Source: an uncultured Clostridia bacterium (GTDB lineage: Bacteria > Bacillota > Clostridia > TANB77 > CAG-508). Taken from it: a stretch of DNA of 64,000 nucleotides. This document shows positions 27,976 to 58,545 of this stretch, in pieces. The position numbers and the translations under genes are program-made. The notes beneath the pieces are model-generated. The model did not search any database, was not told the origin of the DNA, and saw nothing but the letters and a program-made list of their open reading frames with translations. The stretch is taken from assembly GCA_944386175.1 (NCBI GenBank), contig CALXAB010000001.1, positions 47,645 through 111,644 of the forward strand. The letters run 5' to 3'. Position 1 is the first letter of the stretch; every line of letters begins with the position of its first letter.

Positions 27976-27997
27976 TTGTATATTTGTCCTTTCTTTC

Positions 27998-29317: not shown

Positions 29318-29329
29318 TCTAACTCCTCC

Positions 29330-29980
29330 TTAATAATCTCCTTTAATATTTTTTTTCTTTTTATTTCCTTGTTTTTTATGTCTTTCAATTAATTTATCTT
29401 CTATTTCTTGTATTGAAACATTAGATTTAAACATTAATACTAGTGTATGATATATTAAATCAGAAATTTCTCCTATCAATTCTTTTTTATCTATGTTTTT
29501 CGCAGCTATTACTGTTTCAGTTGCTTCTTCACCAACTTTTTTGCATATTTTATCTATTCCTTCATCTAATAAATAATTAGTATATGAATTTTCCTTTGGA
29601 TTAATATTTCTATCAATTATCTGATTATAAATATCCTGTAAGATATTTGTATCATCATTATTTTCATAAGAAACTATTTCCTTAAAAAAGCATGAATAGT
29701 TACCAGTATGACATGCTCCTTTTCCTTCCTGCTTTACATAAATCAACAATGTGTCGTTGTCACAATCTAAATACATGCCTTTTATTTCTTGAATATTTCC
29801 TGATGTTTCTCCTTTATGCCATAATTCTTTTCTACTTCTTGAATAAAAACATGTTTGTTTGTTTTCTATCATATATTTATAACTATCTTCGTTTACATAT
29901 GCTAACATCAATACTTCTTTTGTTTTATAATCTTGTACTATTGCTGGAATTAACTCCATCTTTTTAAAATCTGGCTTCAA
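29330..29980 (-). CDS. hisIE: bifunctional phosphoribosyl-AMP cyclohydrolase / phosphoribosyl-ATP pyrophosphatase
   Basis: HisI part [18 protein letters not shown]...DCDNDTLL...ACHTG. HisE part [15 protein letters not shown]. Confidence 0.9.
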
Positions 29981-30082
29981 TATTCTTCAACTCCTAAAAT
30001 ATTTATATTACTTATATATTGTTATTTTTATTGTGGGGAAAATAATACAATTATTTTCCCCTTTGATTAAACACTTTAAATC

Positions 30083-31447
30083 TTAAAGCTCTTTATCAAG
30101 GTAGATTTTTAAATCTTCCTCTTTTCTCTCTTTCTGTAATCTTCTCATCTTGTCAACACTACTTACACCTTCAAGTAATTTAAATCCTAATTTCACGGCA
30201 ATATTATAGGACATAGATTTACCTATTTCGAGAGTTTTCATATATACTCTTTCATAACCATCCTCTTTCATTACTTCAATAGCATATTTCATTAACTCTG
30301 TCCCAATTCCTTTTCCACGAAACTCTTGTAAGACTGTTATATCAGCAAGATATGCTGTTTTTTCTGGATTATCATAATGGACAGGATGCCTATCTTTTAA
30401 TAACATTTTTCTAAAAGTTACTGTTCCTATACATTCATCTCCAATATAATATCCATAAACATGACCGTATTTTGTTAGTTCTTCATATTCTTCTTTGATT
30501 AAATCATCTGTCCAATCCTCACAATATGGGGGATTACAAAATACTTTATATGCTTTTATAAAGTCTTTTATTTTATCTGGTGTTATTGCTTTGATTCTCC
30601 GTGCCATCATAGTTTTTTCCTCCTCTAATTCAATTGAATATTTTTTTCCATCAGTTTCAACATTGCCTAAAATAGTAGCCTTTTCAAAATTCCCTTCTTT
30701 ATAGATTATGTCTGCTGTAATAATCAATCCAGAAGGCTGTAAAACATCAATTTTTACACTTTCATTTTTTAAATAAGCTTCTACAATACATGTAGCTGTT
30801 GTCCCAGACCCACATGCTGTTTCATAGAAAAGTGTATGAATTTCCTTAACCCATACAATTGGATTAATCTTTATTACACCTTTTTCTTTTTCGCAGAACA
30901 TAACTCCTACTGCTTCACTATATTCAAGATGATATTTATGAATATAGTGCATCCCCATTGCTTTTAAATCCTTCTTATTAATAAGATATTTTTTAGCAAT
31001 TTCATCTTGAATAACTACAGTTACCATACCATTCATTTTTACAATAAAAATTCCTGGCTCTTTTTCAGTGATTACATCATCACCATGATAAAGTGGAATT
31101 TCGCACCATGCCTTTCCTTCTTCATCAACTCCTGCATTAATCAAATCTTTAGAATTTACAAACATTTGTAAATTCCCTGATTTACCATTTAAATAAATGG
31201 TTGCTGCACTTCTTGTTGCATTACCACAAAACTCTCCCCCTGCCATTTGCAATTCAGGTTTATGATTTAATTCAATAAACCCAACCTGCTCAACATTAGA
31301 ATGTTTTGCCATAATCAAATCGTTGATTTTCTTTCTCTGTTTTTGTGTATATTCCAATCCATAAACGAATGCTGTATCATTACCAGCTGGTCTATAAATT
31401 GAATATTCCACATTAGTTACAGATGCTTTGCAATGTTTTTCGTTCAT
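30083..31447 (-). CDS. fusion protein: DapF-fold PLP-independent racemase/epimerase (N-terminal) + GNAT acetyltransferase (C-terminal)
   Basis: RPAGNDTAFV, GGEFCGNATRSAA and ETACGSGTTATC (two catalytic-Cys motifs of the DapF fold). The C-terminal part has VLQEFRGKGIGTELMKYA (GNAT motif A). Confidence 0.65.
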   Translation of the reverse strand: MNEKHCKASVTNVEYSIYRPAGNDTAFVYGLEYTQKQRKKINDLIMAKHSNVEQVGFIELNHKPELQMAGGEFCGNATRSAATIYLNGKSGNLQMFVNSKDLINAGVDEEGKAWCEIPLYHGDDVITEKEPGIFIVKMNGMVTVVIQDEIAKKYLINKKDLKAMGMHYIHKYHLEYSEAVGVMFCEKEKGVIKINPIVWVKEIHTLFYETACGSGTTATCIVEAYLKNESVKIDVLQPSGLIITADIIYKEGNFEKATILGNVETDGKKYSIELEEEKTMMARRIKAITPDKIKDFIKAYKVFCNPPYCEDWTDDLIKEEYEELTKYGHVYGYYIGDECIGTVTFRKMLLKDRHPVHYDNPEKTAYLADITVLQEFRGKGIGTELMKYAIEVMKEDGYERVYMKTLEIGKSMSYNIAVKLGFKLLEGVSSVDKMRRLQKERKEEDLKIYLDKEL

Positions 31448-31520
31448 AATGTTCTCCTTTCTTTGAATTGAAGGTAAGTATAAAATATTTATACTTAGTA
31501 ATGAATAAATTACATTAATT

Positions 31521-31549
31521 ATTATATATTCATTTTATGTAAAAGTCAA
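31521..31549 (-). promoter_or_regulatory. sigma-A-type promoter for the racemase-GNAT/hisIE/hisS unit
   Basis: TTGACT (31549-31544), 17-nt spacer, TATAAT (31526-31521). Its -35 overlaps the hairpin GTAAAAGTC...GACTTTTAC (31539-31577) just after the hisG stop. Confidence 0.5.
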
Positions 31550-31579
31550 GAAAATCCAGTATATTCAAGACTTTTACGG

Positions 31580-32215
31580 TTATTTATTATTTTGTTTTTC
31601 TATTAAATCAATTAAATTTAAAATTTCTTCCTTCTTATACTTAAATTTAGTCTTATTACAAATTAATCTTGTACTTACATCTGCTATTTTCTCTATAACT
31701 TCTAAGCCATTCGCTTTCAATGTTGCTCCTGTTTCTACTATATCTACTATTGCATCTGTTAATCCAACTACTGGTCCTAATTCAACTGACCCTTCAAGTT
31801 TTATTATTTCAACATCTTCATCTTTACTTTCAAAATAGTTTTTAGCAACACTAGGATATTTTGTTGCTATCCTTTTTCTTCTATTTAATTTTAGATTTTT
31901 ATATTCAGGATAACTACAGACTGCAAATGAGCATTTTCCTATTTCCAAATCTAGTAATTCATAATAATTTTTAAAAGAATTTTCCAGTAATGTATCACTA
32001 CCTACAATTCCTATATCAACAATACCATGTTCAATAAAGGTAACTACATCGTTTGACTTTGCAAATATTATTATCATTTTATCTTCTACGTTTATTTGTA
32101 ATTCTCTTTTTTTATTTATCATAGATTCTACATTATATCCTAATTTTTCTAACATTTCTGTCATCTTTTTTTCTATTCTACCCTTTGTTAAGGCTATCTT
32201 TAACATTTTGTTCAC
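31580..32215 (-). CDS. hisG: ATP phosphoribosyltransferase, short form
   Basis: 211 aa. [13 protein letters not shown] and [18 protein letters not shown]. The short HisG form requires HisZ. Confidence 0.9.
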
Positions 32216-33176
32216 CTGCTCTTTCTACTGCTTTTAATATATTATCCATATAATAAGCCATTCCTATGGCTGGTACATCCTTTCCGAAATTGTTATATAA
32301 TTTGTCATATCTTCCACCACTTATTATAGGTTCTTCTACAAATTTACTATATACTTTAAATATAATTCCTGTATAATATTCCATATTAGGAACACAAGCC
32401 AAATCAAACAAATCTTGTTGTTTCATATTCATGGTTTCATACAATTCTTTCAATTCTATTAGACTATTCTTTAATTCATTATCTCTTAATTTTTCTATGG
32501 TTCTTACTAATATTTCTATATTTCCATTAAGTCTTGGTAAAGATATTAAAAAATTGCTTATATTTTTATCTATATTATATTTATCACAAAATTTTTTTAA
32601 TCCACTTATATTTTTTTGTAGTAATAGCTGCGAAAACTCTTTCTTTTTTTCAGATCCAACTATTTGGCATAATCTATTATAAAAACTAGCTGAACCAAGT
32701 TCTATCTTTAAATCCTTTAATCCAAAAAGTGGTAAAGATTTTTGTAATAATGATATACACTCTACATCTCCTTCTATTGCTTTTTTTCCAATTAATTCTA
32801 TCCCTACTTGGTATATTTCGCTATTCTTTCCTTTATGTTCCTTTTCTTTTCTATATACTTTTCCAAAATAGCAATACCTTTTTATTTCATCTTTTTTTTG
32901 TGATACATAGTATCTAGCTATTGGAACTGTAAAATCCCATCTTAAAGCAACATCTTTTCCTTCTTTATTTATATATTTGAATAAAGTACTCTCATCTAAA
33001 TTCTTATATACACTTTTATATAATTCCACATATTCAAATGTTGGCATCAGCATTTCTATATATTTTTCATCATAGAATATCTTTCTCAATTTACTTTCAA
33101 AATTTCTTAATTTATTAACATTCTCAGTAATTACCCCACTACTTTCTTCTGGTATTGAAAATTTGTATAATTCCAT
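32178..33176 (-). CDS. hisZ: ATP phosphoribosyltransferase regulatory subunit (HisRS paralog without anticodon-binding domain)
   Basis: 332 aa with a HisRS-like catalytic core ([19 protein letters not shown]). Overlaps hisG. Confidence 0.85.
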
Positions 33177-33196
33177 AAAAATTCTCCTTTCACATT

Positions 33197-33251
33197 AAAA
33201 AGCTATATAGTTAAATAATATCTTTCTATGAATATTATCTACCTATATAGC
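33197..33251 (-). terminator. attenuator terminator in the hisZG leader
   Basis: On the minus strand: GCTATATAGG (33242-33251) ... CTATATAGC + TTTTT (33197-33210), 20 nt upstream of the hisZ RBS. Confidence 0.65.
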
Positions 33252-33314
33252 TTTATATTTTTATATAGGCACATCAAAATCGACTTGTGCCTATACATTA
33301 TATTAGACACAAGT

Positions 33315-33362
33315 TTAAAAATGATGATGCACTTTATTTATATTTTTAGTTATATTCTTCAT
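33315..33362 (-). CDS. 15-aa leader peptide MKNITKNINKVHHHF with three consecutive His codons
   Basis: AAGAGGAA RBS, ATG at 33362-33360, CAT CAT CAT at 33329-33321, TAA at 33317-33315. Followed by overlapping alternative stems. Confidence 0.6.
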   Translation of the reverse strand: MKNITKNINKVHHHF

Positions 33363-33392
33363 TTTTATTCCTCTTTTTTCTTATTTTTAATT

Positions 33393-33421
33393 ATAATACA
33401 TTATTTTTTTATATATGTCAA
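33393..33421 (-). promoter_or_regulatory. sigma-A-type promoter of the hisZG leader
   Basis: TTGACA (33421-33416), 17-nt spacer, TATTAT (33398-33393). Confidence 0.6.
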
Positions 33422-33482
33422 GTACAAAATTCATTTTTTTTAACATGCTATAACCAATTATGATTATAGCATGCTTTAGATT

Positions 33483-33767
33483 TTACTTAGAGAAAGATAT
33501 AATTGCATAATGTCGCTTTGCATCAATTTGATAATAAGAATGCCCCCTAATATTAATTGGCTTTTCTATTGTTTTAATAGAAATTTTCAGCCCATTACCA
33601 TTTGCCCAGCTTGTTAGTTCTCTTTCCATAGCAACATCTACATCCCTTTTTTCTTTTTCAATCTGAACTTTCTTGAAAAATACTAATGCTACTTTTACTT
33701 TGAACTTAATCCATTCCGTATCAAACCGTGACCTTTCTCTTCTTTTTCTACTTTCAAATTTTGACAT
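33483..33767 (-). CDS. hypothetical basic protein (94 aa)
   Basis: ORF only. Followed by the hairpin AGCATGCTATAA..TTATAGCATGTT. Confidence 0.35.
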   Translation of the reverse strand: MSKFESRKRRERSRFDTEWIKFKVKVALVFFKKVQIEKEKRDVDVAMERELTSWANGNGLKISIKTIEKPINIRGHSYYQIDAKRHYAIISFSK

Positions 33768-33873
33768 ATAGATTTACCTCCTACTATTTATTTTATTTAT
33801 TTTATCACATACACTTATATTTTTCAATTAAAATTTTAGGAAGCCATGCATTATACACAGCTCCCTATGATTT

Positions 33874-35205
33874 TCAGTCCTTATTATTAGTTTCGATAAA
33901 TTGCATAATCCCTTCATAGTCAAAGATACCGAACTCTCGATTGTTTCCAGTTTCCATATCCTTGACTTGGATTTTTTGCTGTTTGATTTCATCTTCCCCA
34001 ATAATAATAACGTAAGGAATGTTCATTTTGTTGGCATAATTCATACTTTTTTTCAGTTTCTGAGTCTTTTTTTCCATTTCTGTTTTGATTCCAACTTCAC
34101 GCATTTTAGTAACAAACTTAAATGTCTGTTCTTCTGTTCCCATTGGAATCACAAACAAATCAACGGTAGAAAACTTTTTGTCAGAATTCTTTAAGACTAA
34201 AATTTCATATATAACATCTAATCCAAAAGACATTCCAACTGCTGGATATTCATTTCCATCATCAATGAATGTTGTAATAATTTTATCGTATCTGCCTCCT
34301 CCTCCTATGCTCATGTTGAAATCTTGTACACCAACTTTTCTGTCTTTCAGGAAAATCTCCCAAACTGTACCAGTATATATATCAATCCCTCTTGCCAAAT
34401 AAGGAGCAAATTTCATGCATTTTTCGGCCTCTGTTCCTGACAGATAATCATATAATGCATCAATTTCTTTTATCCCTTCGGCAATCATTTCATTATCATA
34501 TACTGATAATAATCTTTTTAATGTTACATAATCAGAGTTTAGAACATTTTTCAATGCCTCCACTTTATTGGCATCAATACCAATAGCTGCAAACTCTTCA
34601 AATAATTCTTCCTCTGTGAGTTTGGCAAACTTATCAATCAACATGATTGATTTTCTTAATATTTCTTCCGAAACATCACCAAAAATAGAGAAGATGATAC
34701 CACTCAATAGCTTTCTGTTGTTGAATTCTATTTCAATGTCAAGTCCTAGCTCTTTATATGCTTCGCTTGTCATTGTCATGTATTCTGCTTCTGCTAAAAC
34801 ACTTTTAACTCCAACAACATCAACATCGCATTGGGTAAATTCTCTGTTTCTACCTACCTTAACTGGACCATCTCTAAAAACTTTTCCAATCTCATACCGT
34901 TTAAAGGGTAAGGTAACTCCTTTATTTGAACTAATCAATTTAGAAAAAGTGATTGTCAAATCATACCTTAAACCCAGTTTTCTTTTTCCTTGATCACTCA
35001 ATTTGTACATCTCGTTCAGAATATCTGCACCTTCTGAATATTTAGATGCCAATAAGTCATACATACAAAGAATTGGTGTTTCGACTGGTGAAAATCCGTA
35101 CTTTACAAAGATGCTTTGCAATACACTTTTGATTTTTTCCCGGATAATTTGTTTTTCCGGCAAATAATCATAAGTCCCCTTTAAGTTTTCAAAATTTCTG
35201 CTCAT
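33874..35205 (-). CDS. hisS: histidine--tRNA ligase, copy 2 (canonical bacterial type)
   Basis: KGTYDYLPEKQ, LRYDLTITFSK, NREFTQCDVDVVG and GGGGRYDK, plus an anticodon-binding domain. 443 aa. Confidence 0.85.
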   Translation of the reverse strand: MSRNFENLKGTYDYLPEKQIIREKIKSVLQSIFVKYGFSPVETPILCMYDLLASKYSEGADILNEMYKLSDQGKRKLGLRYDLTITFSKLISSNKGVTLPFKRYEIGKVFRDGPVKVGRNREFTQCDVDVVGVKSVLAEAEYMTMTSEAYKELGLDIEIEFNNRKLLSGIIFSIFGDVSEEILRKSIMLIDKFAKLTEEELFEEFAAIGIDANKVEALKNVLNSDYVTLKRLLSVYDNEMIAEGIKEIDALYDYLSGTEAEKCMKFAPYLARGIDIYTGTVWEIFLKDRKVGVQDFNMSIGGGGRYDKIITTFIDDGNEYPAVGMSFGLDVIYEILVLKNSDKKFSTVDLFVIPMGTEEQTFKFVTKMREVGIKTEMEKKTQKLKKSMNYANKMNIPYVIIIGEDEIKQQKIQVKDMETGNNREFGIFDYEGIMQFIETNNKD

Positions 35206-35334
35206 AAAATTACTCCTTTCTGAAAATCATGGAAAATCATACTTTTAATTTTCCTTAGTCTATATGAACATTCTTCGCAATTATTATACTGTATTTTACT
35301 AAATTTGTCAATTATTTACATAATTTTTTCACCT

Positions 35335-35386
35335 AAAAAAGCACATTATATCAATACTTTTGATACAATATGCTTTAATAATTTTA
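35335..35386 (-). terminator. rho-independent terminator after the purD-like fragment
   Basis: On the minus strand: AAAGCATATTGTATCAA..TTGATATAATGTGCTTT followed by TTTAGG. Confidence 0.55.
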
Positions 35387-35450
35387 ATATAAATTATTAT
35401 TTTATATTTAATTATTTATATAGTATTTATAATTTTTATATGTTACATTA

Positions 35451-36125
35451 TTAAAATTCCCTTATATCATATCTAAAATATAGTCCATCCATTTTTATTT
35501 TATGAAAATCTTTTATTATATTTTCTTTGACTTTATTAAAATCTTTTCCTACTCTTCTTAATGCAAATACTCTACCTCCTGAAGGATATAGTATATTATT
35601 TTTTGATATTATATGTTCCCCTATAATATCTGTTGTATTTTTTACTTTGTTCATACCTAAAATTGGTTCATCAAAACTACTTCTTTCTACTTCTGGATAT
35701 CCTGCTGAAAATCCATACATTGCTATAGAAAAGCAGTCTTTTTTCCAACAATTATTTATCTTTTCTACATCTTCATAAAAGAAATTTATTATATCTATAA
35801 AAGGTTTATTCAGTAACCCTAATAAAGCTAACCACTCTGGATTACCTGTTCTTGTATTATATTCTAATACATATACTTTTTTATCTTCGGTAACCATTAT
35901 TCCTATATATAAAATATAGTTATATTCCATATTTTCTTTTTTCATACCTCTTATAGTTGGTTCTATTATATCTTTTTTTAATTGTTCTTCTTTTTCTGTG
36001 CTAACTCTTGCATAAGCACATACTCTTAAATTACCTTTTATAACTTCTCCTGTTGTTCTATTAATTCTTCCTTTTTTCTTCTCTATTACTTGTACTTTCA
36101 AATTTAACCTCTCTTTCTCAAGCAT
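35451..36125 (-). pseudogene. chimeric ORF: first 48 codons of an LSR gene fused in frame to the C-terminal ~176 aa of a PurD-like (phosphoribosylamine-glycine ligase) gene
   Basis: Residues 1-48 (MLEKERLNLKVQVIEKKKGRINRTTGEVIKGNLRVCAYARVSTEKEEQ) are almost identical to LSR 48681-50573. From 35981 leftwards the sequence matches the PurD C-terminal half (EYNTRTGNPEW, SGGRVFAL, DGLYFRYDI). Confidence 0.8.
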
Positions 36126-36168
36126 AGAGAATCTTTATGTTTGTATTATATACTAAAATTTTATATTT

Positions 36169-36354
36169 TTAAATACCTATGTGGATTAAATTATATTCTT
36201 TTAAAATATTTTGTTTTAGTTCTAAATATCTTTTCTCTTTAATTAATCCTGCATTATATGTTTTATTTAGAATTGCTATTTTAATGCTACAATTAAAAAT
36301 ATTTTCATTTAGTTTTACATTTTTCGTATTATCAAATTTTACTTCGTACAACAT
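36169..36354 (-). CDS. 61-aa conserved small ORF preceding the LSR (copy A)
   Basis: MLYEVKFDNTKNVKLNENIFNCSIKIAILNKTYNAGLIKEKRYLELKQNILKEYNLIHIGI. Nearly identical to copy C and homologous to copy B. Confidence 0.6.
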   Translation of the reverse strand: MLYEVKFDNTKNVKLNENIFNCSIKIAILNKTYNAGLIKEKRYLELKQNILKEYNLIHIGI

Positions 36355-36439
36355 AAAAATCCTCCTCTGCTTGAATTAAATTTCAAAAAAGAGCGACAAA
36401 AAAGCCAGCCGGCTAGCTAGACTGACTTCTTTGTCTTAC

Positions 36440-36890
36440 ATTTTTTGATAATACAATTATATTATGCTGTTCTATAAAGTTCAATTCCCGTTTTTTTCCC
36501 TTTTTTCTATTTTAATTGATAAAGCGTTGACTTTTTAGTTAGTACACTAAGTAAACTTGTGTAAAAATTTTTTTAATTATTTTTTACTTTATTATTTTTG
36601 AGTTCACTTAGTGTACTTTTTGTTTTGTATTTAAAAACCTTAGTTCACTTAGTGAATAAAAAACTAACTTTCAAGTACACTTGGTGAACTTTTTCTTAAA
36701 AATCACTTATTTTTCGTTCATTTAGTGAACTTTTGCACTCTCAAAGGCATTTTTTAGCTGTTCATTCGGTGAATTTCCGCATCAAATTTGCTTAAAATTT
36801 TTGTTCTTTTGTTAACTCTTGAAGGCTTGTCCTTCAATGTGTATAGGCGATGTGTGCACACTCGCTTTCCTGCCTTTAGTATTGTTTTTT
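36440..36890 (-). repeat. R module, copy A
   Basis: Dyads at 36541-36557, 36601-36617, 36642-36658, 36674-36690, 36716-36730 and 36760-36774. Core and hairpin at 36812-36874. Ends 2 nt from the stop of the ABC gene. Confidence 0.85.
36456..36484 (-). promoter_or_regulatory. consensus sigma-A promoter of unit A'
   Basis: TTGAAC (36484-36479), 17-nt spacer, TATAAT (36461-36456). A terminator-like leader hairpin at 36403-36427 plus a T-run follows. Confidence 0.6.
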
Positions 36891-36891
36891 A

Positions 36892-38670
36892 TCATATATT
36901 AATTACTTTTTGTTGACTCATATATAATTTATAATAATTTCCTTTTATGCTCATTAATTCTTCATGAGTTCCATATTCTACTATTTCTTTATCTTTAATA
37001 AAAAATATTCTGTCACTATCCACTATTGTAGATAATCTATGAGCAATCGTTATTACAGTTTTATTTTTAACCATTTCTTTTGTTAGATTTTGTAGCATTT
37101 TTTCTGTTTTTACATCAATCTTACTTGTTGCTTCATCGAAGATTAATATTTTAGGGTTATTAATAATTGTTCTTATATAGCATAATACCTGTTTTTCTCC
37201 ATCTGATAGATTTTTTCCATTACTACTTAATTTTGTATTGTATCCATCTTCTAAACTCATTATCCAATTATGTACATTCAATCTTTTACATATTTCTATT
37301 ACTTTATCATCAGTTATATTTTCATTTCCATATTTTAAATTTTTCATAATGCTTGTACTAAATAAGTAATTTTCTTGTTGCATAATAGCTATCTGTTTTC
37401 TAAGTCTATTTAGTTTTATATTTCTAACATCTTCTCCATCAATAAAAATATTTCCTGAATCTATATCATAAAATCTTCCAATTAGATTTGTAATAGTGGT
37501 TTTTCCACTTCCTGTACTACCTACAATAGCTACTTTTTCTTGCGGTTTTACTTTAAAAGATATATTATTTAAAACTTTATTATTTTCTATATAAGAAAAA
37601 CTAACATTTTTAAATTCTATTTCACCTTTTATTTTGATGTCTTTAGCATCTATTTTATCTTTTATATCTATTTTTTCATCCATTGTTTCAAATATTCTCT
37701 CTAAATATGTAATTGAATTAATAAAATCATCTAATGTTTTAAATAAGTCTTCTATAGGTTGCCAAAAGTTAGATGAATAACTTCCCATAGCAACAATAGT
37801 TCCAACTGATGTAGTTGGATATAAAAACATCGCTCCTACAAAATATATTGTTGCAGTTACCCAATGTGACATTGTTTGTACACTACACCATCCAATATTG
37901 CCAAATTTTATTTGTTTGCAACTTGCATCTTTCCAACTTCTACTTAAATCATTAAATATATCTTCATTCTTTTCTTCTCTATTAAATGCTTGGGTTATTT
38001 GCATTCCTTTTAATGTTTCTAATAGATATGCATTAGTATTAGAATTTTTATTATTAATTAGTAATTTATTTTTTCTCTTTATCTTAGCTGTTGAAGCAAA
38101 TATAAAAATAAGTATTACTATTCCAACTAATGCGATTAATGTTAGTTTCACACTTGTTAAAAACATAAATATCAGAATAATAAGCATATTAAATATGTTT
38201 AAAAATGTTGTTACTAATTTATCTGTAATTAGAGTAGAAACATCTTCTGCATATTCTGTTAGTCTAACTAGTATTTTTCCATGAGGTCTTGTGTCGTAAT
38301 AATTAACTGATAAATACTGAATATGTGAAAACAAATCATTTTTTATATCTTCTACAATATTTTGATTTACTTTAGCCAACATTTTTTTATACACTTTAGT
38401 TACAATAATAGACAATAATACTAAAAATAATGCTAATAATATTATGATAAACAATTTTTCATAATCGCTATTAGGAATAACATCATCGATTACATATTGT
38501 AGTATTTTAGTGATAAATAAAGTAGCTATAATAGATATACAATTTAAAATAAATATAATAATCAATTTTGATTTATATTTTTTTATGTATGTTAAACCTC
38601 TTTTATAATTAGAAAGACTGAATGAAGTATTTTTTTCATCTTGGTCATATTTGTTTACACTCATATACAT
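36892..38670 (-). CDS. ABC exporter, fused permease/ATPase (heterodimer partner 2)
   Basis: Six N-terminal TMs, Walker A GSTGSGKTT, signature LSDGEKQ, Walker B ILIFDEATS. Confidence 0.85.
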   Translation of the reverse strand: MYMSVNKYDQDEKNTSFSLSNYKRGLTYIKKYKSKLIIIFILNCISIIATLFITKILQYVIDDVIPNSDYEKLFIIILLALFLVLLSIIVTKVYKKMLAKVNQNIVEDIKNDLFSHIQYLSVNYYDTRPHGKILVRLTEYAEDVSTLITDKLVTTFLNIFNMLIILIFMFLTSVKLTLIALVGIVILIFIFASTAKIKRKNKLLINNKNSNTNAYLLETLKGMQITQAFNREEKNEDIFNDLSRSWKDASCKQIKFGNIGWCSVQTMSHWVTATIYFVGAMFLYPTTSVGTIVAMGSYSSNFWQPIEDLFKTLDDFINSITYLERIFETMDEKIDIKDKIDAKDIKIKGEIEFKNVSFSYIENNKVLNNISFKVKPQEKVAIVGSTGSGKTTITNLIGRFYDIDSGNIFIDGEDVRNIKLNRLRKQIAIMQQENYLFSTSIMKNLKYGNENITDDKVIEICKRLNVHNWIMSLEDGYNTKLSSNGKNLSDGEKQVLCYIRTIINNPKILIFDEATSKIDVKTEKMLQNLTKEMVKNKTVITIAHRLSTIVDSDRIFFIKDKEIVEYGTHEELMSIKGNYYKLYMSQQKVINI

Positions 38671-40379
38671 TCCTCCATATTATTTACTTGAATATCATAA
38701 ATTTCTTTATATTCTCCATTCTTATTCAATAATTCTTCATGTGAACCACTCTCTATGATTTCTCCGTTTTTCATTACAAATATGACATCAGCATTTTTTA
38801 CAGAAAGAATTTTTTGTGCAATTATAATTTTTGTACATCTATATTTCAAATTATTAATATTTTCAGTAACTTCTAATTCAGTTTCAAAATCTAGTGCGGA
38901 AGTTATATCATCTAATATTAATATACTAGGTCTCTTAGCTAATGCTCTTGCCAAAGATAAACGCTGTTTTTCACCTCCTGATAAACTCACTCCATTTTCT
39001 CCTATTATTGTATTAATATCCTCTGGTAAATCAAATACATAATCAGCTTTAGCCAATTTTAAACATTTTTTTATTTCTTCTTCTTTTAAATCTTCATTTC
39101 CAAAACTAACATTATTGGAAATAGTATCAGAAAACAGAAAAGGAGTTTGAGAAACATAACCGATATTTTTTCTTAATGATTTTAATGTATATGTATTTAT
39201 TAAATTATCGTCTATTTCTATCTTTCCACTTGAACATTCTATCAGTCTTAACATCAGTTTTCCAATAGTAGATTTTCCACTCCCTATTTCTCCAATAAAT
39301 GCATAAGTCTTATTGGGCTTTAAATCTAAATTAATATTTTTTATAACTTTCCTATTATTAAGTTTGACATTAACCCCTTTAAAAATAATATTTTCCCAAT
39401 TATTTAATATTAAACTTCCTTTATCTTTTATTTTAGGTTCAGTTTCTAATAATTTTCTTACTTTTGATACAGATACTCTAAATTGTTGCCATTCATTTAT
39501 AAAACCACTTAATTCTATAAACGGTTTTCTTATAGTGCCTATAAAAGAATTAATAATAATAAATTGTCCCATTGTCGTGTAACCTTTTATAACAAATATT
39601 CCCCCAAATAAAGTTAATAATATTTGCATACAATATGATAAAAATGTGACTATATTGTCATAAGAGATATTCATATTTTGTATTTCTAAATTCTTATTTT
39701 TCAAATTTCTATTCTTTACTTTAAAGTTATCTATTTCTTTTTGTTCTGTTGCAAATGTTTTGATTAATCTATTTCCTTCTATATTTTCTTGTATATAATT
39801 ATTTAGGTTTGACAAACTTTCTCTTTGATCTTTATATAATTCCTTTGATTTTTTTATATGTTTTTTAGATATAACTGCAATTATAGGAGTAGGTATTAAA
39901 ATAATTAGTGTTAAAATTGGGTTTATATATAGGCAGTAAATTGTAGTTAAAATACTAGTAGTTAACATGCTTATAGATTGTTTTATCACAAAACACATAT
40001 TATGATGAATAATGCTATTATCTGTTGTTAAAAGCGTGCTTATTTCTCCCAAAGTTTTTTCTTCGTAAAAATCTTGATTTAATTCATTCAATTTTTTATA
40101 ACATTCAACTTTTAACTTATGTGCTAAATTAAATCTAACATGATCCATTATTAATATTCCAAAATAAGTTATCAGCCTACCTATAAAATACATACTAATA
40201 GATATAATAAAAAGGTATGGAATAATAGAAAAATTACTCTCATATATACCTTTATCTATTATTTCTCCTAATAGTATAACTGGTAATATTTTAGAAATTC
40301 CTCCACCTAATATTATCATTAAATTTGAAATCCAATATCTAAAATTATATTCTTTAATAAATTTTAATACCCATCTCAT
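38661..40379 (-). CDS. ABC exporter, fused permease/ATPase (heterodimer partner 1)
   Basis: Walker A GEIGSGKST, signature LSGGEKQR, Walker B ILILDDITS. Overlaps its partner by 10 nt. Confidence 0.85.
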   Translation of the reverse strand: MRWVLKFIKEYNFRYWISNLMIILGGGISKILPVILLGEIIDKGIYESNFSIIPYLFIISISMYFIGRLITYFGILIMDHVRFNLAHKLKVECYKKLNELNQDFYEEKTLGEISTLLTTDNSIIHHNMCFVIKQSISMLTTSILTTIYCLYINPILTLIILIPTPIIAVISKKHIKKSKELYKDQRESLSNLNNYIQENIEGNRLIKTFATEQKEIDNFKVKNRNLKNKNLEIQNMNISYDNIVTFLSYCMQILLTLFGGIFVIKGYTTMGQFIIINSFIGTIRKPFIELSGFINEWQQFRVSVSKVRKLLETEPKIKDKGSLILNNWENIIFKGVNVKLNNRKVIKNINLDLKPNKTYAFIGEIGSGKSTIGKLMLRLIECSSGKIEIDDNLINTYTLKSLRKNIGYVSQTPFLFSDTISNNVSFGNEDLKEEEIKKCLKLAKADYVFDLPEDINTIIGENGVSLSGGEKQRLSLARALAKRPSILILDDITSALDFETELEVTENINNLKYRCTKIIIAQKILSVKNADVIFVMKNGEIIESGSHEELLNKNGEYKEIYDIQVNNMEECI

Positions 40380-40505
40380 TTATATTTTTTCTCCAATATT
40401 TATTATATTTTTATATTACTTTTCATATTCTATCATAATTTTATTTCTTTCTCAATAAAATTATAAAGTTTCAAAATATATTTATCCTTACATTTGCTTA
40501 ATTAT

Positions 40506-40581
40506 GAAAAAATCCGCAATAGAAATAATGTCAAGAGCGAGTGATAATGAGTTTATTTACTCTTGATATTATTTTTATTGC
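40506..40581 (-). terminator. long conserved hairpin H (copy b) with T-run
   Basis: On the minus strand: GCAATAAAAATAATATCAAGAG - 22-nt loop - CTCTTGACATTATTTCTATTGC, then GGATTTTTTC. Confidence 0.65.
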
Positions 40582-40821
40582 AGATTAAATTTACCCTGCA
40601 AATGTATGAGGCAAAAAATAAGTATCAGTACATATCTACCGACACTTAAATTTATAAAGATTCTCTATTACTTATTTCATAAATTCTTTCTAGCAATTGA
40701 AATAACTGATAATTTTACATATCTACAATTAAACACAACCTATATATGTCATGCTTATCATAGACACAATCTCAAATTCCCTAGTATTTCAAACACTTCT
40801 ATCAATTTTCTAAAATTTAAT

Positions 40822-41004
40822 TTATGTGTTTCCACTTACCACATCTGCAACTACTTTAACTTTCACATCTGAATTTTGATGTTTTTCTCTTCCATATCTT
40901 CCTTTTTTCTCGAAAGTTATAATCTCTGAAAACATATCAAATTCAAGTATTACCTGTCCTGTTTTAGTTGTAGCACTGCCACACATTCCACATGTGTTGG
41001 TCAT
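40822..41004 (-). CDS. CxxC tail module of LSR B, in a separate overlapping frame
   Basis: MTNTCGMCGSATTKTGQVILEFDMFSEIITFEKKGRYGREKHQNSDVKVKVVADVVSGNT is homologous to the in-frame C-terminus of LSR C. Overlaps the end of LSR B by 41 nt. Confidence 0.5.
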   Translation of the reverse strand: MTNTCGMCGSATTKTGQVILEFDMFSEIITFEKKGRYGREKHQNSDVKVKVVADVVSGNT

Positions 41005-42679
41005 CTCTGGTTGCAGTAAGTTTTAAATGTTGTTTATCTCCTGTTGCAGTAAAATTGTCTTTACAATTTATTTCTGTTCCGTTTTTACAAATAAACCTTA
41101 TTGTATATGGATTTATTGTACCATTTTCTAATGTTTCCCCAATTATTACTTTCTCTATTATACATTCAAAAATATCTTTATCAAAATTTTTCATTATTTC
41201 CATATCTTTAAATAAACCTTTAAACTTGTTTAATCTATGTTTAATACTTTCATTTCTGTTTGTGTCTTTTAGTAGGTTTTGTATTTTCTGTTCTACTTTT
41301 AATAGTTCTATGTTTAGCTCATCATATTTTAAAGTATATTGTTCTTTATTTATTCTGCCTTCTAAGTTTAGTTCTAATAGATTATTAAGTTTCTTGTTTA
41401 TTTTCTCTTTGTCTTTTTCTAGCTTATTTACTACTGTTTCTGTAGTATTTTCTTTTAAGACATTTTCTATTTTTTCTAAAAAATCTTCTACTACTTTTTT
41501 ATTGTTGTTACAGAGTATTCTATATCCTTGTACAAAACAATCTTCTAGTATTTCTTCTGGTATTGCTTTACAGTATGGGCATTCTTCTTTTCCATGTTTT
41601 GCTCTTTTGATACATTGCCATACTGCTTTTTCATATTTTCTTTTTGAGTTCCAGTTTCTTCTTGTAAGTAAGCTACCACAAAATCCACAATATAATTTAC
41701 TACTAAAAGCATATTTCTTACTATAGTTATTATTTCTTCTTCCTGTTTCTCTTGTTCCTACTCGTTTTATTCTTATTTCTTGTACTCTATCAAATAACTC
41801 TTTACTAATAATTGGCTCATGATGTTCTTTTATATAATGCTTTTCTGCTTCTCCTAAATTGCTTAATCTTTTATGTGATATTGGATCTATTGTAAATGTT
41901 TTTCCCATTAGCACATCTCCAATATATTTTTCATTTTTTAGTATTCCTCTTATTGTTGATTCGTTCCAATTATCATTACCTTTTGGGGATTTAATGCCTT
42001 TTGCTTTTAGTTCTTTTGCTATTGTACTTGAACCTATTCCGTCTACATATCTTTCAAATATATATTTTATAACTTCTGCTTGTTCCTCATTTATAGTTAT
42101 CTGTTTTGTTATTAAATCATAGTTATAACCGTAACAACCATTATAGCCAATTAACTCTCCCCTGTCTTTCTTCATTTTTAGTCCAAGCAATACATGTGAA
42201 GATATGTTCTCACTTTCTTGTTGTGCCATAGCACTTAATACTGTTAGTAGCATTTCTCCTGTTCCTGATAGAGTATTTAGATTTTCTTCTTCAAATAAAA
42301 CTGCAATGTTCTTTTCTTTTAGCATTCTTACATATTTTAAAGTATCTAATGTGTTTCTAGCAAATCTTGATATGGATTTTGTTAAAATCATATCAAATTT
42401 TCCAGACATTCCATCTGTTATCATTTTCATAAAGTCTGTTCTTTTAAAATCTAATGTGCCACTTATAGATTCATCTGCATATATTCCTGCAAATTGCCAT
42501 TCAGATTTGCTATTGATTTTTTCATCATAATACTTTAATTGTGATTGGTAACTATTTAATTGTTCTTTATTTCCTGTACTAACTCTACAATATGCACATA
42601 CTCTTAATCTTTCTTTGATTGTTGTACCTGTTACTCTGTTAATTCTTCCGTTTGTTTTCTCTATGACTTGAATTTCCAT
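40964..42679 (-). CDS. large serine recombinase, unit B
   Basis: Resolvase catalytic domain (VCAYCRVSTGNKEQ, SISRFARNTLD), recombinase domain, zinc ribbon (CGFCGSLLTRRNW...CPYCK) and coiled coil. Confidence 0.9.
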   Translation of the reverse strand: MEIQVIEKTNGRINRVTGTTIKERLRVCAYCRVSTGNKEQLNSYQSQLKYYDEKINSKSEWQFAGIYADESISGTLDFKRTDFMKMITDGMSGKFDMILTKSISRFARNTLDTLKYVRMLKEKNIAVLFEEENLNTLSGTGEMLLTVLSAMAQQESENISSHVLLGLKMKKDRGELIGYNGCYGYNYDLITKQITINEEQAEVIKYIFERYVDGIGSSTIAKELKAKGIKSPKGNDNWNESTIRGILKNEKYIGDVLMGKTFTIDPISHKRLSNLGEAEKHYIKEHHEPIISKELFDRVQEIRIKRVGTRETGRRNNNYSKKYAFSSKLYCGFCGSLLTRRNWNSKRKYEKAVWQCIKRAKHGKEECPYCKAIPEEILEDCFVQGYRILCNNNKKVVEDFLEKIENVLKENTTETVVNKLEKDKEKINKKLNNLLELNLEGRINKEQYTLKYDELNIELLKVEQKIQNLLKDTNRNESIKHRLNKFKGLFKDMEIMKNFDKDIFECIIEKVIIGETLENGTINPYTIRFICKNGTEINCKDNFTATGDKQHLKLTATRDDQHMWNVWQCYN

Positions 42680-43058: not shown

Positions 43059-43149
43059 GAAATTGCTCCTTTTCTTTAAATTTGAAAAGAAAAAGAACAA
43101 AGAAACTAGAATCTTTCTAATCCCTTTGCTCTTTCTCTTTCATACTACC

Positions 43150-43178
43150 ATTATATTATCGTGTTTTTATATAGTCAA
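43150..43178 (-). promoter_or_regulatory. consensus sigma-A promoter of unit B
   Basis: TTGACT (43178-43173), 17-nt spacer, TATAAT (43155-43150). Confidence 0.6.
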
Positions 43179-43199
43179 TTCCATTTTTATTCCCTCTTT

Positions 43200-47259: not shown

Positions 47260-47282
47260 TGATAAGACCTCCTCTTACATTT

Positions 47283-48680: not shown

Positions 48681-50573
48681 TTATACTACTCCGCACACCA
48701 TGTCAACTTCTATCGTTACTTTAATTTTATGATTTTCTGTTCTTTTAACCTTATTTTTGCCTTTTCTATCAAAACTAATAAAATCTTCAAAAGCAGTAAA
48801 TTGGGCTATTGTATCGAATCTTTCAGACATAGCACCGAGCAACACTCCACATGGCTCACACCCAGTCTGTAGATAGTTTTGGCTTACCTCGTATGATGAC
48901 TGTTGCAAACTACCTTGATTTTTATCTTTTTGACATTTGATTTCGTTTCCAGATTTTAGGATAAATGTTATTACTCTTGGATTTACATCTCCATTTTGTT
49001 CTTTTTCTCCTATTATAACTTTTTCTATCATTAATTCAAAAACATCTTTATCAAATGTTGGCATTATTTCATCATCTTTAAATAGACTTTTAAACTTGTT
49101 TAATCCTTGATTTAAACTAATTGAATCTTCTAACTCTAGTTGTAAATGTTCTTGCTCTTTTTCTATTTTGTTTATCTTGTTTTGTAATTTTGCCTTTTTA
49201 TCTTTTAATGTTTCAAGTGTTATTGTTCCATTCAAGTTTAAATCAATTAACTTGTCTATCTTTTCTTTTAAAGTTTGTTTTTCTTCTTCTAATTTTTTAA
49301 TAGAACTTTCATTACTTTCTTCTTGTATGATTTCTTCCATTTGTTTTAAGAATGTTTTGATTAGTTTTTTGTTATTATTACATAAAAGTTTATAACTTTC
49401 TGTAAATGCTTCTTCTATAATGTTTTCTTTCATTGCTTTACAATATGGGCAATTTTCTTTTCCATGTTTTACAAATTCCATACAATGCCATACCGTAATA
49501 CTATTTTTTGTTCCAGAGTGCCAGTTTCTTCTTGTTAATAAACTTCCACAAAAACCACAATATATTCTACTACTAAAAGGATATTTTCTGCTAAAGTTTC
49601 CTTTTCTTCTTCCAGAGCCTCGTACTCCTCCTCGCTTTTGTAATATTTCTTGTGCTTGATTAAACATTCTTTCTGAAATAATTGGTTCATGATGTTCTTG
49701 TATGTAATACTGATTTTCTTCTCCCATATTGACTACTCTTCTATGTGAGATTGGATCTGTTGTATATGTTTTTCCTTGTAAGACATCTCCTTTGTATTTT
49801 TCGTTTTTCAAAATACCTCTTATAGTTGAGTCATGCCATTGTTTCTTTCCTGTTGGTGTTTTATATTTCATAGCAGTTAGTTCTTTTGCAATTGTTGTGC
49901 AACCTACTCCTTGACAGTATCTTTCAAAGATATATCTTACTATTTCTGCTTCTTGATAATTTACTGATATTTTCTTTGTTTCTTTATCATATACATATCC
50001 TAAACATCCATTATATCCAATTAATTCTCCTCTTTTTTGTTTCATCTGTAATCCTAGTTTTACATGAGAAGATATATTTTCGCTCTCCTGCTGTGCCATT
50101 GCACTCATTACTGTTAGCATTACTTCGCCAGATAATTCTAAAGTATTGATGTTTTCTTCTTCAAAATAAATAGTGATTCCTTTTTCCTTTAATAATCTTA
50201 CATACTTTAAAGTATCTACTGTATTTCTTCCAAATCTTGATATTGATTTTGTAATTATCATGTCAAATTTGTTTTCTGTTGCATCTTGCATCATTCTCAT
50301 AAAGTTATCTCTTTTATAGTCAAGTGTTCCTGTTATCCCTTCATCTGCATAAATCCCTACATAAGTCCAATCACTTCTTGATTTTATTTTTTCTTCATAA
50401 TATTTTAGCTGAGAATTATAACTATTTATTTGTTCTTCTTTTTCTGTACTAACTCTTGCATAGGCACATACTCTTAAATTGCCTTTTATAACTTCTCCTG
50501 TTGTTCTATTAATTCTTCCTTTTTTCTTCTCTATTACTTGTACTTTCAAAATTAACCTCTCTTTCTCAAGCAT
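48681..50573 (-). CDS. large serine recombinase, unit C, with an in-frame C-terminal CxxC tail
   Basis: VCAYARVSTEKEEQ, SISRFGRNTVD, CGFCGSLLTRRNW...CPYCK and a coiled coil. About 90 extra C-terminal residues are homologous to ORF 40822-41004. Confidence 0.9.
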   Translation of the reverse strand: MLEKERLILKVQVIEKKKGRINRTTGEVIKGNLRVCAYARVSTEKEEQINSYNSQLKYYEEKIKSRSDWTYVGIYADEGITGTLDYKRDNFMRMMQDATENKFDMIITKSISRFGRNTVDTLKYVRLLKEKGITIYFEEENINTLELSGEVMLTVMSAMAQQESENISSHVKLGLQMKQKRGELIGYNGCLGYVYDKETKKISVNYQEAEIVRYIFERYCQGVGCTTIAKELTAMKYKTPTGKKQWHDSTIRGILKNEKYKGDVLQGKTYTTDPISHRRVVNMGEENQYYIQEHHEPIISERMFNQAQEILQKRGGVRGSGRRKGNFSRKYPFSSRIYCGFCGSLLTRRNWHSGTKNSITVWHCMEFVKHGKENCPYCKAMKENIIEEAFTESYKLLCNNNKKLIKTFLKQMEEIIQEESNESSIKKLEEEKQTLKEKIDKLIDLNLNGTITLETLKDKKAKLQNKINKIEKEQEHLQLELEDSISLNQGLNKFKSLFKDDEIMPTFDKDVFELMIEKVIIGEKEQNGDVNPRVITFILKSGNEIKCQKDKNQGSLQQSSYEVSQNYLQTGCEPCGVLLGAMSERFDTIAQFTAFEDFISFDRKGKNKVKRTENHKIKVTIEVDMVCGVV

Positions 50574-58364: not shown

Positions 58365-58545
58365 TTATGTGTTTCCATTTACCATATCTGCAACTACTTT
58401 AACTTTCACATCTGAATTTTGATGTTTTTCTCTTCCAAATCTACCTTTTTTATTAAAAGTTATAATCTCTGAAAACATATCAAAATCAAGTATTACCTGC
58501 CTTTCTTTAGTTGTAGCACTGCTACACACTCCACATGTGTGGTCG
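58365..58545 (-). pseudogene. orphan 3' end of an LSR gene (CxxC tail only)
   Basis: HTCGVCSSATTKERQVILDFDMFSEIITFNKKGRFGREKHQNSDVKVKVVADMVNGNT with no start codon. Similarity to LSR B stops at ~58545, next to CACATGTG (58532-58539). Confidence 0.75.

What the first reader, a model, noticed from the sequence alone, without database searches (positions are those of the whole stretch)
35451..36125. LSR N-terminus fused in frame to the C-terminal half of a PurD-like gene
The copy-A sequence matches unit C from R through LSR codon 48 and stops matching at 35981/35982, just after the catalytic-serine motif YARVSTEKEEQ. The same ORF then continues as the C-terminal ~176 aa of a divergent phosphoribosylamine-glycine ligase (EYNTRTGNPEW, SGGRVFAL, DGLYFRYDI). 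The missing PurD N-terminal half is not in this window. One reading is a deletion that removed the rest of unit A' and half of purD, leaving the frame intact by chance. Another is a recombination junction inside the 5' end of the recombinase gene. The purD-like fragment also borders the his-related cluster, so an ATP-grasp ligase may originally have belonged to that cluster.
Basis: partly seen in the sequence, partly recalled or inferred. Interest (0 to 1): 0.55.

Follow-up and report, generated by a model that had tools for sequence, protein, structure and literature searches.

The report
Deletion scar fusing recombinase and ligase
The fused gene is real, but it is most likely a dead remnant of a deletion that joined the start of a mobile-element recombinase gene to the back half of a neighbouring ligase gene, so the fusion itself is ordinary.

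Summary
ORF 35451-36125 (-) has 48 codons of a large serine recombinase (LSR) followed in frame by residues 251-426 of a 426-aa PurD-like ligase. The same 41-nt junction occurs in contigs from 7 independent samples, so it is not an assembly artefact.

Close relatives (Clostridium sp. CAG:440 and several MAGs) carry the intact ligase directly upstream of the same HisRS-like gene.

The junction lies in a 5-nt identity (AACAA) inside a 14/17-nt patch shared by the two parent genes. These recombinases cut elsewhere, at an 8-nt core (CATGTGGA) about 55 codons before the end of the LSR ORF. There, three left-arm types and three right-arm types reassort in six junctions. The window holds a head-to-tail array of three LSR cassettes (58537 to 35982), and the last one is truncated.

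No reciprocal PurD-N::LSR product and no other unit broken at codon 48 was found.

Best reading: short-homology illegitimate recombination, most likely a deletion, in frame by chance. It killed both genes and locked the last cassette in place. Interest is low for the fusion. The cassette array is the more interesting by-product.

The parts
35451..36125 (-). Chimeric ORF of 224 aa from the ATG (gene callers start at a TTG and give 216 aa, protein P0001).
35982..36125 (-). LSR-derived part, codons 1-48, ending ...YARVSTEKEEQ. It keeps only 13 of the roughly 148 residues of the Resolvase catalytic domain.
   Evidence: The Resolvase domain spans residues 36-183 in the intact LSR-C.
35451..35981 (-). 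PurD-like part, equivalent to residues 251-426 of the intact 426-aa protein, plus the stop codon. It holds the last third of the ATP-grasp A domain and the C domain.
   Evidence: Nucleotide homology to L011 10730-11275 is shown.
35982..35986 (-). AACAA, the 5-nt identity shared by both parent genes at the breakpoint. It sits in a 17-nt patch with 14 matches (LSR GAAGAACAAATAAATAG versus purD-like GAAAAACAATTAAAAAA; the purD side is read from the chimera downstream of the junction and from relatives upstream).
36145..36173 (-). Promoter-like site (TTTAAA-17-TATAAT) just upstream of the chimeric ORF, inherited from the LSR unit.
   Evidence: This is a consensus match only.
36169..36354 (-). Small 61-aa ORF of the LSR unit, with no family match. 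It precedes intact LSRs in other contigs.
36400..36883 (-). Repeat R of unit A. It has a conserved 5' block and six GTTCAC-N3-GTGAAC-like palindromes (36542-36774).
35982..40986 (-). Cassette E3, the last of the array: tail, two ABC exporter genes (38661-40379 and 36892-38670), R, the small ORF and the truncated LSR-A.
40987..40994 (-). att core CATGTGGA at the E2/E3 boundary, inside the 3' end of LSR-B (40964-42679).
48846..48853 (-). att core CATGTGGA at the E1/E2 boundary, 54 codons before the stop of LSR-C (48681-50573).
58530..58537 (-). att core CATGTGGA at the left end of the array (attL-like), 60 nt after the stop of the 529-aa ORF (58598-60187). A sister strain (L088/L094) is identical up to the core and differs after it.
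33874..35205 (-). HisRS-like gene (443 aa), the conserved downstream neighbour of the purD-like gene in all relatives. It has its own perfect-consensus promoter at 35311-35283.

Best explanation
The ORF is a scar of illegitimate (short-homology) recombination, most likely a deletion. The window carries a head-to-tail array of three cassettes mobilised by large serine recombinases (E1 58537-48854, E2 48853-40995, E3 40994-35982, minus strand). Each cassette is built as tail, cargo, repeat R, small ORF (61 aa in E1 and E3; a 58-aa ORF is called at that position in E2) and LSR. The cassettes are joined at an 8-nt core, CATGTGGA, near the 3' end of the LSR ORF. A break-and-join event between codon 48 of the E3 recombinase gene and codon 250/251 of a PurD-like ligase gene used a 5-nt identity (AACAA) within a 14/17-nt similar patch. 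The event removed the remaining 1.75 kb or so of the recombinase gene and the array's right-hand att site. It also removed whatever lay between, including the first 250 codons of the ligase gene and probably the four cluster genes that precede it in relatives. Both codon series happened to be in the same phase (E-E-Q versus E-K-Q), so the frame stayed open by chance (prior 1/3). The product keeps the recombinase promoter and start. It has only 13 residues of the catalytic domain and lacks the N domain and two thirds of the ATP-grasp domain of the ligase, so it should have neither activity. Consequences: E3 can no longer be excised at its right end, and the ligase half of the his-related cluster is lost. 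Shown here: the junction, both parent sequences, the microhomology, the true att core, and fixation in the lineage. Inferred: that the event was an intrachromosomal deletion, its size, and that the product is inert.
For: Both parents are identified. The LSR parent is unit C and the intact 622-aa LSRs in L097/L098, which read ...GAAGAACAA|ATAAAT. The purD-like parent is intact in L011 (Clostridium sp. CAG:440), L009, L010, L007/8, L116 and L121-123, always directly upstream of the same HisRS-like gene, and reads ...GAAAAACAA|TTGAAAAAAGAT.

Window-to-L011 nucleotide homology (86%) runs from 27259 to 35999 and ends in the patch.

The real recombination site of this LSR family is elsewhere. Six junctions share CATGTGGA, and 3 left-arm types and 3 right-arm types reassort exactly there. 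For example, window attL versus L094 attL is 100% identical on the left and 64% on the right. LSR-C versus L094 attL is 51% on the left and 92% on the right.

None of the 75 homologues of the PurD-like N-half is fused to recombinase domains; nearly all are full length, about 426-432 aa.

The 13 contigs with the identical small ORF show either a full LSR or this one chimera.

Other units are degraded at unrelated points. An orphan R at 20108-20349 is cut inside R, and LSR-B is frameshifted before the core.

dN of the fragment is doubled at equal dS compared with intact orthologues: 0.095 versus 0.046 at dS of about 0.6.

The domains are incomplete.
Against: No genome with the presumed ancestor (intact E3, then attR, then an intact purD-like gene) was found. 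The flank on the right of the array (B') is unknown, so the deleted interval is not defined.

The neighbourhood upstream of the cluster differs in every relative. The cluster may therefore have arrived by transfer rather than having been next to the array.

The 176 ligase codons are still open in a 25% G+C genome, and omega is 0.15-0.19, well below 1. Some retained function cannot be excluded. My rough estimate, not a tool result, is about an 18% chance that no stop codon would have arisen under neutrality.

Microhomology of 5 nt in an A-rich sequence is weak evidence on its own.
Confidence: 0.72

Rival explanations
1. The same illegitimate joint arose by acquisition rather than deletion. A DNA fragment carrying the cluster from the middle of the purD-like gene onward was integrated next to the array by homology-facilitated illegitimate recombination, with one end anchored by homology and the other joined at the AACAA microhomology.
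For: The cluster sits in a different chromosomal neighbourhood in each relative and is modular; L121 has only the first module. Nothing syntenic with the upstream flank of any relative is found in the window or within 10 kb beyond it.
Against: No donor or homologous anchor could be identified. The window-to-relative divergence of the fragment (dS about 0.6) is the same as that of the neighbouring genes, as expected for vertical descent. A deletion needs fewer events.
Confidence: 0.15
2. The junction is a site-specific recombination product (attR-like) made by the recombinase at a site inside its own 5' end.
For: The break lies just after the catalytic-serine motif and in frame. On the minus strand, LSR 3'-end fragments lie upstream (58537) and the LSR 5' fragment lies downstream. 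This is superficially the topology of an element whose attP lies inside the gene.
Against: The upstream LSR 3' fragments start at the CATGTGGA core, 54 codons from the stop, not at codon 49. By inspection, the junction sequence has no resemblance to that core or to its flanking dyad (CCAACACAT / ATGTGTGG). No reciprocal product appears among 75 homologues. No second example of a unit ending at codon 48 was found. Intact LSR-B and LSR-C show no discontinuity at codon 48.
Confidence: 0.03
3. The fusion is a selected, functional new protein, for example a PurD C-domain protein expressed from the recombinase promoter, or a decoy N-terminus that modulates the related LSR-C.
For: The ORF is open, a promoter-like site is retained, omega is below 1, and the junction is fixed in all 23 contigs that carry the identical neighbouring HisRS-like gene.
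Against: Neither catalytic unit is complete. dN is twice that of intact orthologues. The junction 41-mer and the neighbouring HisRS-like protein are identical in every contig examined, which fits a recent, clonal origin and does not demonstrate selection. Other lineages show the same gene decaying in different ways: a frameshift in L001, truncation in L002, and the scrambled N-terminus of P0005.
Confidence: 0.07
4. The junction is an assembly artefact, a false join across the 0.9-kb repeat.
For: Contigs often break at this repeat. L111 ends exactly at the junction and L128/L131 start inside it. The variant contig L099 may itself be a repeat collapse.
Against: The purD-like side is unique sequence, and the exact 41-nt joint is assembled independently in 7 samples by different pipelines.
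Confidence: 0.01

Closest known systems
Microhomology-mediated (illegitimate) deletion that produces fusion pseudogenes next to mobile elements
   Same: Two unrelated genes are joined at a few shared bases, sequence on both sides is lost, and no site-specific recombination signature is present. The frame is preserved by chance and the constraint signal is relaxed.
   Different: The deleted interval and the ancestral state could not be recovered, so deletion and homology-facilitated illegitimate acquisition cannot be separated.
PurD, phosphoribosylamine-glycine ligase (TIGR00877; Pfam GARS_N/GARS_A/GARS_C)
   Same: The intact relatives have all three GARS domains over their full length. The fragment aligns to model positions 235-419.
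   Different: Even the intact relatives score below the equivalog cut-off (259 versus 288 bits). They sit in an accessory his-like cluster rather than a pur operon, so they are PurD-like paralogues of unknown substrate. The window copy lacks residues 1-250.
Tandem SCC/SCCmec-like cassettes mobilised by Ccr large serine recombinases (Hossain et al. 2024, PMC11470126)
   Same: The surrounding array consists of head-to-tail cassettes bounded by a short repeated core. Each can carry defence or resistance-type cargo (AbiE, Schlafen/AlbA_2, APH, GNAT, ABC exporters) and they are mobilised by LSRs. CcrC and CcrB are the best, though weak, NCBIfam matches of LSR-C.
   Different: LSR-C scores far below the Ccr cut-offs (133 versus 900 bits). 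The core lies inside the 3' end of the recombinase ORF itself, not in rlmH/orfX. Every cassette carries its own LSR plus a repeat R with operator-like palindromes.
Integrase genes that span their own attP, such as Myxococcus phage Mx8 intP/intX (a tyrosine integrase; cited from my own knowledge)
   Same: Recombination at a site inside the 3' end of the recombinase ORF exchanges the C-terminal coding sequence.
   Different: It belongs to a different recombinase superfamily. Here the exchanged tails are homologous to each other, and no experiment links them to directionality.

Membership tests
PurD (phosphoribosylamine-glycine ligase, TIGR00877) | Score at or above the curated equivalog cut-off of 288 bits | tested here: not met
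   The chimera scores 110.6 bits. The intact relative P0008 scores 259.4 bits.
PurD (phosphoribosylamine-glycine ligase, TIGR00877) | Complete N, ATP-grasp (A) and C domains | tested here: not met
   The chimera has only GARS_A profile positions 132-193 of 194 and GARS_C, with no GARS_N. The relatives have all three domains.
PurD (phosphoribosylamine-glycine ligase, TIGR00877) | Catalyses GAR synthesis in purine biosynthesis | not testable with these tools
   The genomic context is a his-like accessory cluster, not pur genes.
Large serine recombinase | Resolvase catalytic domain, Recombinase domain and zinc-ribbon domain | tested here: not met
   The chimera keeps residues 1-48 only and has no Pfam recombinase hit. 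LSR-B and LSR-C have all three domains.
LSR att junction (attL/attR hybrid site) | The break coincides with the family's crossover core, and the arms are exchanged among independent junctions | tested here: not met
   The core CATGTGGA is at 58537, 48853 and 40994 and in L094/L097, with reassorting arms. The chimera junction GAACAA|TTAAAA is unrelated.
LSR att junction (attL/attR hybrid site) | A reciprocal product exists | tested here: not met
   None of the 75 homologues of the PurD-like N-half carries recombinase domains. The N-half is not in the window or within 10 kb upstream.
Microhomology-mediated illegitimate recombination scar | Both parental sequences are identifiable and share a short identity at the breakpoint | tested here: met
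   AACAA is shared, with 14/17 matches in the surrounding patch.
Microhomology-mediated illegitimate recombination scar | An ancestral contiguous arrangement is documented | tested here: inconclusive
   All 23 contigs with the identical HisRS-like neighbour either carry the scar or break before it. The 16 contigs with the E3 cargo gene never show an intact LSR-A.

The most novel reading that the evidence does not exclude
The scar marks the fossil right end of a so far undescribed kind of cassette array. Each cassette carries its own large serine recombinase, and the docking core (CATGTGGA) lies inside the 3' end of that recombinase's ORF. Cassettes then stack head to tail, and every integration or excision swaps the last 54 or so residues of the recombinase for the tail encoded by the neighbour. 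This could serve as a built-in directionality or state switch. The anatomy (core, reassorting arms, ORF reading through the core) is shown here. The functional role of tail swapping, and whether it is new to the literature, are not established.
Probability: 0.3. Interest if true: 0.6.

Novelty: new member of a known kind. Interest (0 to 1): 0.2.

Why it matters
The fusion itself matters little. It is an annotation trap, because public gene calls list it as a 216-aa GARS-domain protein. It is also a clean, datable marker that the last cassette of a mobile array has been immobilised and that half of an accessory his-like cluster was lost in this gut Clostridia lineage. Two by-products are more useful. 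First, the cassette family's crossover core and modular structure are defined, which gives testable att sites for new serine recombinases. Second, the PurD-like, PanC-like and HisRS-like genes are shown to form a conserved, modular accessory cluster of unknown product.

Tried and rejected
- Rfam (gathering thresholds) and ARAGORN on the whole window found nothing, so no RNA gene explains R or the junction.
- The single genome-contig scan with a reconstructed full-length PurD-like query found five close relatives but not the window's own genome. Its peptide patterns do not occur in the fragment. I therefore could not look for the N-half elsewhere in the same assembly.
- I walked upstream with the outermost window gene and with the 525-aa gene at the array's left end. 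This gave 10 kb more sequence and a sister strain with different cassettes, but no PurD N-half, no PanC-like gene and no empty attB.
- The sequence to the right of the sister strain's last recombinase (CYTH gene and beyond) matched nothing else, so the native right flank (B') stays unknown.
- The closest intact PurD-like proteins (P0024, P0025) showed no recombinase next to the cluster.
- The apparent extension of the GARS_A, tblastn and purD-model alignments into the LSR-derived residues (from residue 11-36) reflects weak chance similarity plus the microhomology patch. It does not mean more PurD sequence is present.
- I considered that the orphan LSR 3' fragments upstream and the LSR 5' fragment downstream were the two halves of one split gene. 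I rejected this because the 3' fragments begin at the core, 54 codons from the stop.
- Two literature searches for serine recombinase genes that span their own attP found nothing directly relevant.

Full report
**Observation.** The ORF at 35451-36125 on the minus strand is present as described.
- A pairwise alignment of copy A (36960 down to 35850) with unit C shows near-identity. It runs from just after the stop of the preceding gene, through repeat R and a 61-aa ORF, to the first 48 codons of the recombinase. It ends after ...GAAGAACAA (codon 48, 35984-35982).
- Pfam places residues about 49-224 in the end of the ATP-grasp domain (GARS_A profile 132-193 of 194) and the C domain (GARS_C) of phosphoribosylglycinamide synthetase.
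- The NCBIfam purD model aligns positions 235-419 of 425.
- A tblastn search with the N-terminal half and with the upstream PanC-like gene of a relative finds nothing in the window.
- The exact 41-nt junction occurs in 11 fetched loci from seven different samples and several assemblers (contexts). The junction is real and inherited.

**The intact gene and its neighbours.**
- The C-terminal fragment has few direct homologues. One of them (L001) lies in a related cluster where the gene is full length apart from a 1-nt slip in an A10 run.
- A genome scan with the reconstructed protein found five close relatives, all full length: Clostridium sp. CAG:440 (L011) and four uncultured Clostridia MAGs.
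- In L011, L009 and L010 the gene order is S66 peptidase, permease, divergent HisRS-like (427 aa), PanC-like, PurD-like (426 aa), HisRS-like (443 aa), orf94, HisZ, HisG, CntK_N-GNAT, HisIE, HisRS (439 aa), M15 peptidase. L009 has an extra radical-SAM-like ORF after the PurD-like gene.
- The window is colinear with this order from the middle of the PurD-like gene onward. It shows 86% nucleotide identity (L011 10730-19495 = window 35999-27259) and 86-93% protein identity.
- The window fragment equals residues 251-426.
- A search with the N-terminal 250 residues returned 75 homologues. Nearly all are 425-432 aa with GARS_N, GARS_A and GARS_C.
- The full-length form is therefore the norm.
- It is PurD-like rather than PurD: even the intact protein scores 259 bits against a cut-off of 288.

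**Junction anatomy.**
- The recombinase parent (unit C, and the intact 622-aa LSRs in L097/L098) reads ...ACA GAA AAA GAA GAA CAA | ATA AAT....
- The ligase parent (L011/L009) reads ...ACA AAT ATA GAA AAA CAA | TTG AAA AAA GAT....
- The chimera reads ...GAA GAA CAA | TTA AAA AAA GAT.
- The crossover therefore lies somewhere in AACAA (35986-35982), inside a 17-nt patch with 14 matches.
- Both genes read this patch in the same phase (E-E-Q versus E-K-Q), which is why the frame is preserved.
- This is the signature of short-homology illegitimate recombination.

**Where these recombinases really cut.**
- Comparing the window with a sister strain (L088/L094) showed that the two are 99-100% identical from the window's upstream end to an 8-nt sequence, CATGTGGA. 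This sequence lies 60 nt after the stop of a 529-aa ORF (58537-58530). The strains diverge immediately after it.
- The same 8-mer lies 54 codons before the stop of LSR-C (48853) and near the 3' end of LSR-B (40994). It also occurs in the LSRs of L094 and L097 (one mismatch in L097).
- Across six junctions there are three left-arm types and three right-arm types, and they reassort exactly at the core:
  - window attL versus L094 attL: 100% left, 64% right;
  - LSR-C versus L094 attL: 51% left, 92% right;
  - L094 LSR versus L097 LSR: 59% left, 90% right.
- By inspection, the core is flanked by an imperfect dyad (CCAACACAT / ATGTGTGG).
- The region from 58537 to 35982 is therefore a head-to-tail array of three cassettes. 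Each cassette is built as tail, cargo, R, small ORF, LSR.
- The recombinase ORF reads through the core into the next cassette's tail.
- The third cassette (tail, two ABC exporter genes, R, small ORF, LSR-A) lacks everything after codon 48 of its recombinase, including the core that should close the array.

**Tests of the site-specific reading.** If the chimera were an att-type junction, three things would be expected. None was found.
- The break should coincide with the family's core. It does not.
- A reciprocal PurD-N::LSR joint should exist. None appears among the 75 homologues of the N-half, in the window, or within 10 kb upstream.
- Other units should end at the same codon. Of the 13 contigs that carry the identical small ORF, each shows either a full recombinase or this same chimera. 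The E3 cargo gene occurs in 16 contigs, never followed by an intact LSR-A or by a different fusion.

Other units in the window are damaged at unrelated places. An orphan R at 20108-20349 is cut inside R, whereas a related locus (L097) has R, the small ORF and a full LSR at the corresponding place. LSR-B carries a 1-nt indel about 50 nt before the core that removes its C-terminal tail.

**Population and age.**
- All 23 contigs that encode the identical 443-aa HisRS-like neighbour either carry the chimera or break before it. No intact ancestor was found.
- One low-coverage contig (L099) joins unit C directly to the ligase fragment. This is either a 14.4-kb deletion by homologous recombination between copies A and C or an assembly collapse of the repeat.
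- Nei-Gojobori estimates give dN 0.095, dS 0.63 and omega 0.15 for the fragment against L011.
- Two intact orthologues at the same dS give dN 0.046 and omega 0.07. The neighbouring HisRS-like gene gives omega 0.06.
- Non-synonymous change is thus about doubled. This fits a period of relaxed constraint after truncation, but omega well below 1 means most divergence predates the event.
- Residual function cannot be excluded from these numbers.

**Mechanism.** I conclude that an illegitimate, short-homology join, most simply a deletion, fused codon 48 of the last cassette's recombinase gene to codon 251 of the PurD-like gene.
- It removed about 1.75 kb of the recombinase gene, the array's right att site, the intervening DNA and the first 750 nt of the ligase gene.
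- By comparison with relatives, it probably also removed the four genes that precede the ligase.
- The product keeps a promoter-like site (36173-36145) and the Y-x-R-x-S motif. It has only 13 residues of the catalytic domain and one third of the ATP-grasp domain, so neither activity is expected.
- The main rival is that the same kind of joint arose when a cluster fragment was acquired by homology-facilitated illegitimate recombination. The variable location and modularity of the cluster in relatives keep this open.
- The site-specific reading, a functional neo-protein and an assembly artefact are all unlikely.

**Comparison with known systems and verdict.**
- The fusion is an ordinary deletion-scar pseudogene next to mobile DNA.
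- The surrounding array resembles tandem SCC-like cassettes moved by Ccr serine recombinases (PMC11470126), and CcrC/CcrB are the best but very weak matches of LSR-C.
- It differs in that each cassette has its own recombinase and the core lies inside that recombinase's ORF.
- That arrangement recalls integrase genes that span attP, such as Mx8 intP (my own knowledge). I found no described serine-recombinase example in two literature searches, which is weak evidence of novelty.
- The finding as posed scores low. The array is recorded as a lead.

Noticed in passing
window 58537-35982 (-); cores at 58537-58530, 48853-48846 and 40994-40987; also L094 and L097: A head-to-tail array of three LSR cassettes is joined at an 8-nt core, CATGTGGA, with reassorting arms. 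The core lies inside the 3' end of the recombinase ORF. The last 54 or so residues of each LSR are therefore encoded by the next cassette's 'tail', and three homologous tail types were seen.
   Followed up: partly
window 40964-42679 (-) versus L094 16259-18121: LSR-B (571 aa) is 90.6% identical in DNA to a 620-aa LSR in a sister strain. It has a 1-nt indel about 50 nt before the core, which shifts the frame and removes the conserved C-terminal tail. It may be inactive.
   Followed up: partly
window 20108-20349, 36400-36883, 43138-43644 and 50894-51375: Repeat R occurs four times. It has a conserved 5' block with a small hairpin whose stem co-varies between copies (GCGT/ACGC, GCGA/TCGC, GCAT/ATGC). 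This is followed by 3-6 GTTCAC-N3-GTGAAC-like palindromes spaced about 32-44 nt apart. There are 20 sites in the window against 0.7 expected, all inside R. It has no Rfam match and looks like an operator or iteron array upstream of each LSR. The copy at 20 kb is an orphan without an LSR.
   Followed up: partly
window 27292-35205 (-) and L011 5684-19458, L009, L116, L121: A conserved accessory cluster of unknown product. It contains up to three HisRS-like paralogues, HisZ, HisG, HisIE, a CntK_N(histidine-racemase-like)-GNAT fusion, an M15 D-Ala-D-Ala-dipeptidase-like protein, an S66 peptidase, a permease, a PanC-like ligase and a PurD-like ligase (both ligases below their equivalog cut-offs). 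It is modular (L121 has only the first half) and sits in a different neighbourhood in each relative.
   Followed up: partly
L001 2880-2900; L002 1490-1620; protein P0005: The PurD-like gene appears damaged independently in other lineages. L001 has a 1-nt slip in an A10 run. L002 has a 251-aa version truncated behind a short ORF that, by eye, resembles the start of an Imp-YgjV-like membrane protein. P0005 is a 125-aa protein with a scrambled N-terminus. Sequencing error cannot be excluded for the homopolymer case.
   Followed up: no
L099 (ERZ24773253) 1-4994 versus window 55027-50415 and 36883-35586: A contig in which unit C (AbiE, 617-aa ORF, R, small ORF) runs straight into the same LSR::PurD junction. 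This is either a 14.4-kb deletion by recombination between the 0.9-kb direct repeats or an assembly collapse at 4x coverage. Mosaic A/C-type SNPs in L099 and L111 suggest gene conversion between the copies.
   Followed up: partly
window 43789-48506, 53266-57494 and 21768-23140 (-): The cassette cargo is rich in defence and resistance-type genes. These include two AbiEii toxin genes (one with an AbiEi antitoxin hit on the adjacent gene), a Schlafen/AlbA_2-HATPase_c_4-Fic-like-C protein, an HD protein, an APH phosphotransferase, GNATs and a Sel1-repeat protein. A 483-aa ORF at 43789-45240 had no Pfam hit. By eye it contains an ENPRH...DGNRR pattern that I recall from ParB-type domains; this was not tested.
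   Followed up: no
window 35283-35311 (-): A perfect sigma-70 consensus (TTGACA-17-TATAAT) lies upstream of the 443-aa HisRS-like gene. The remaining cluster genes therefore do not depend on read-through from the chimera.
   Followed up: no
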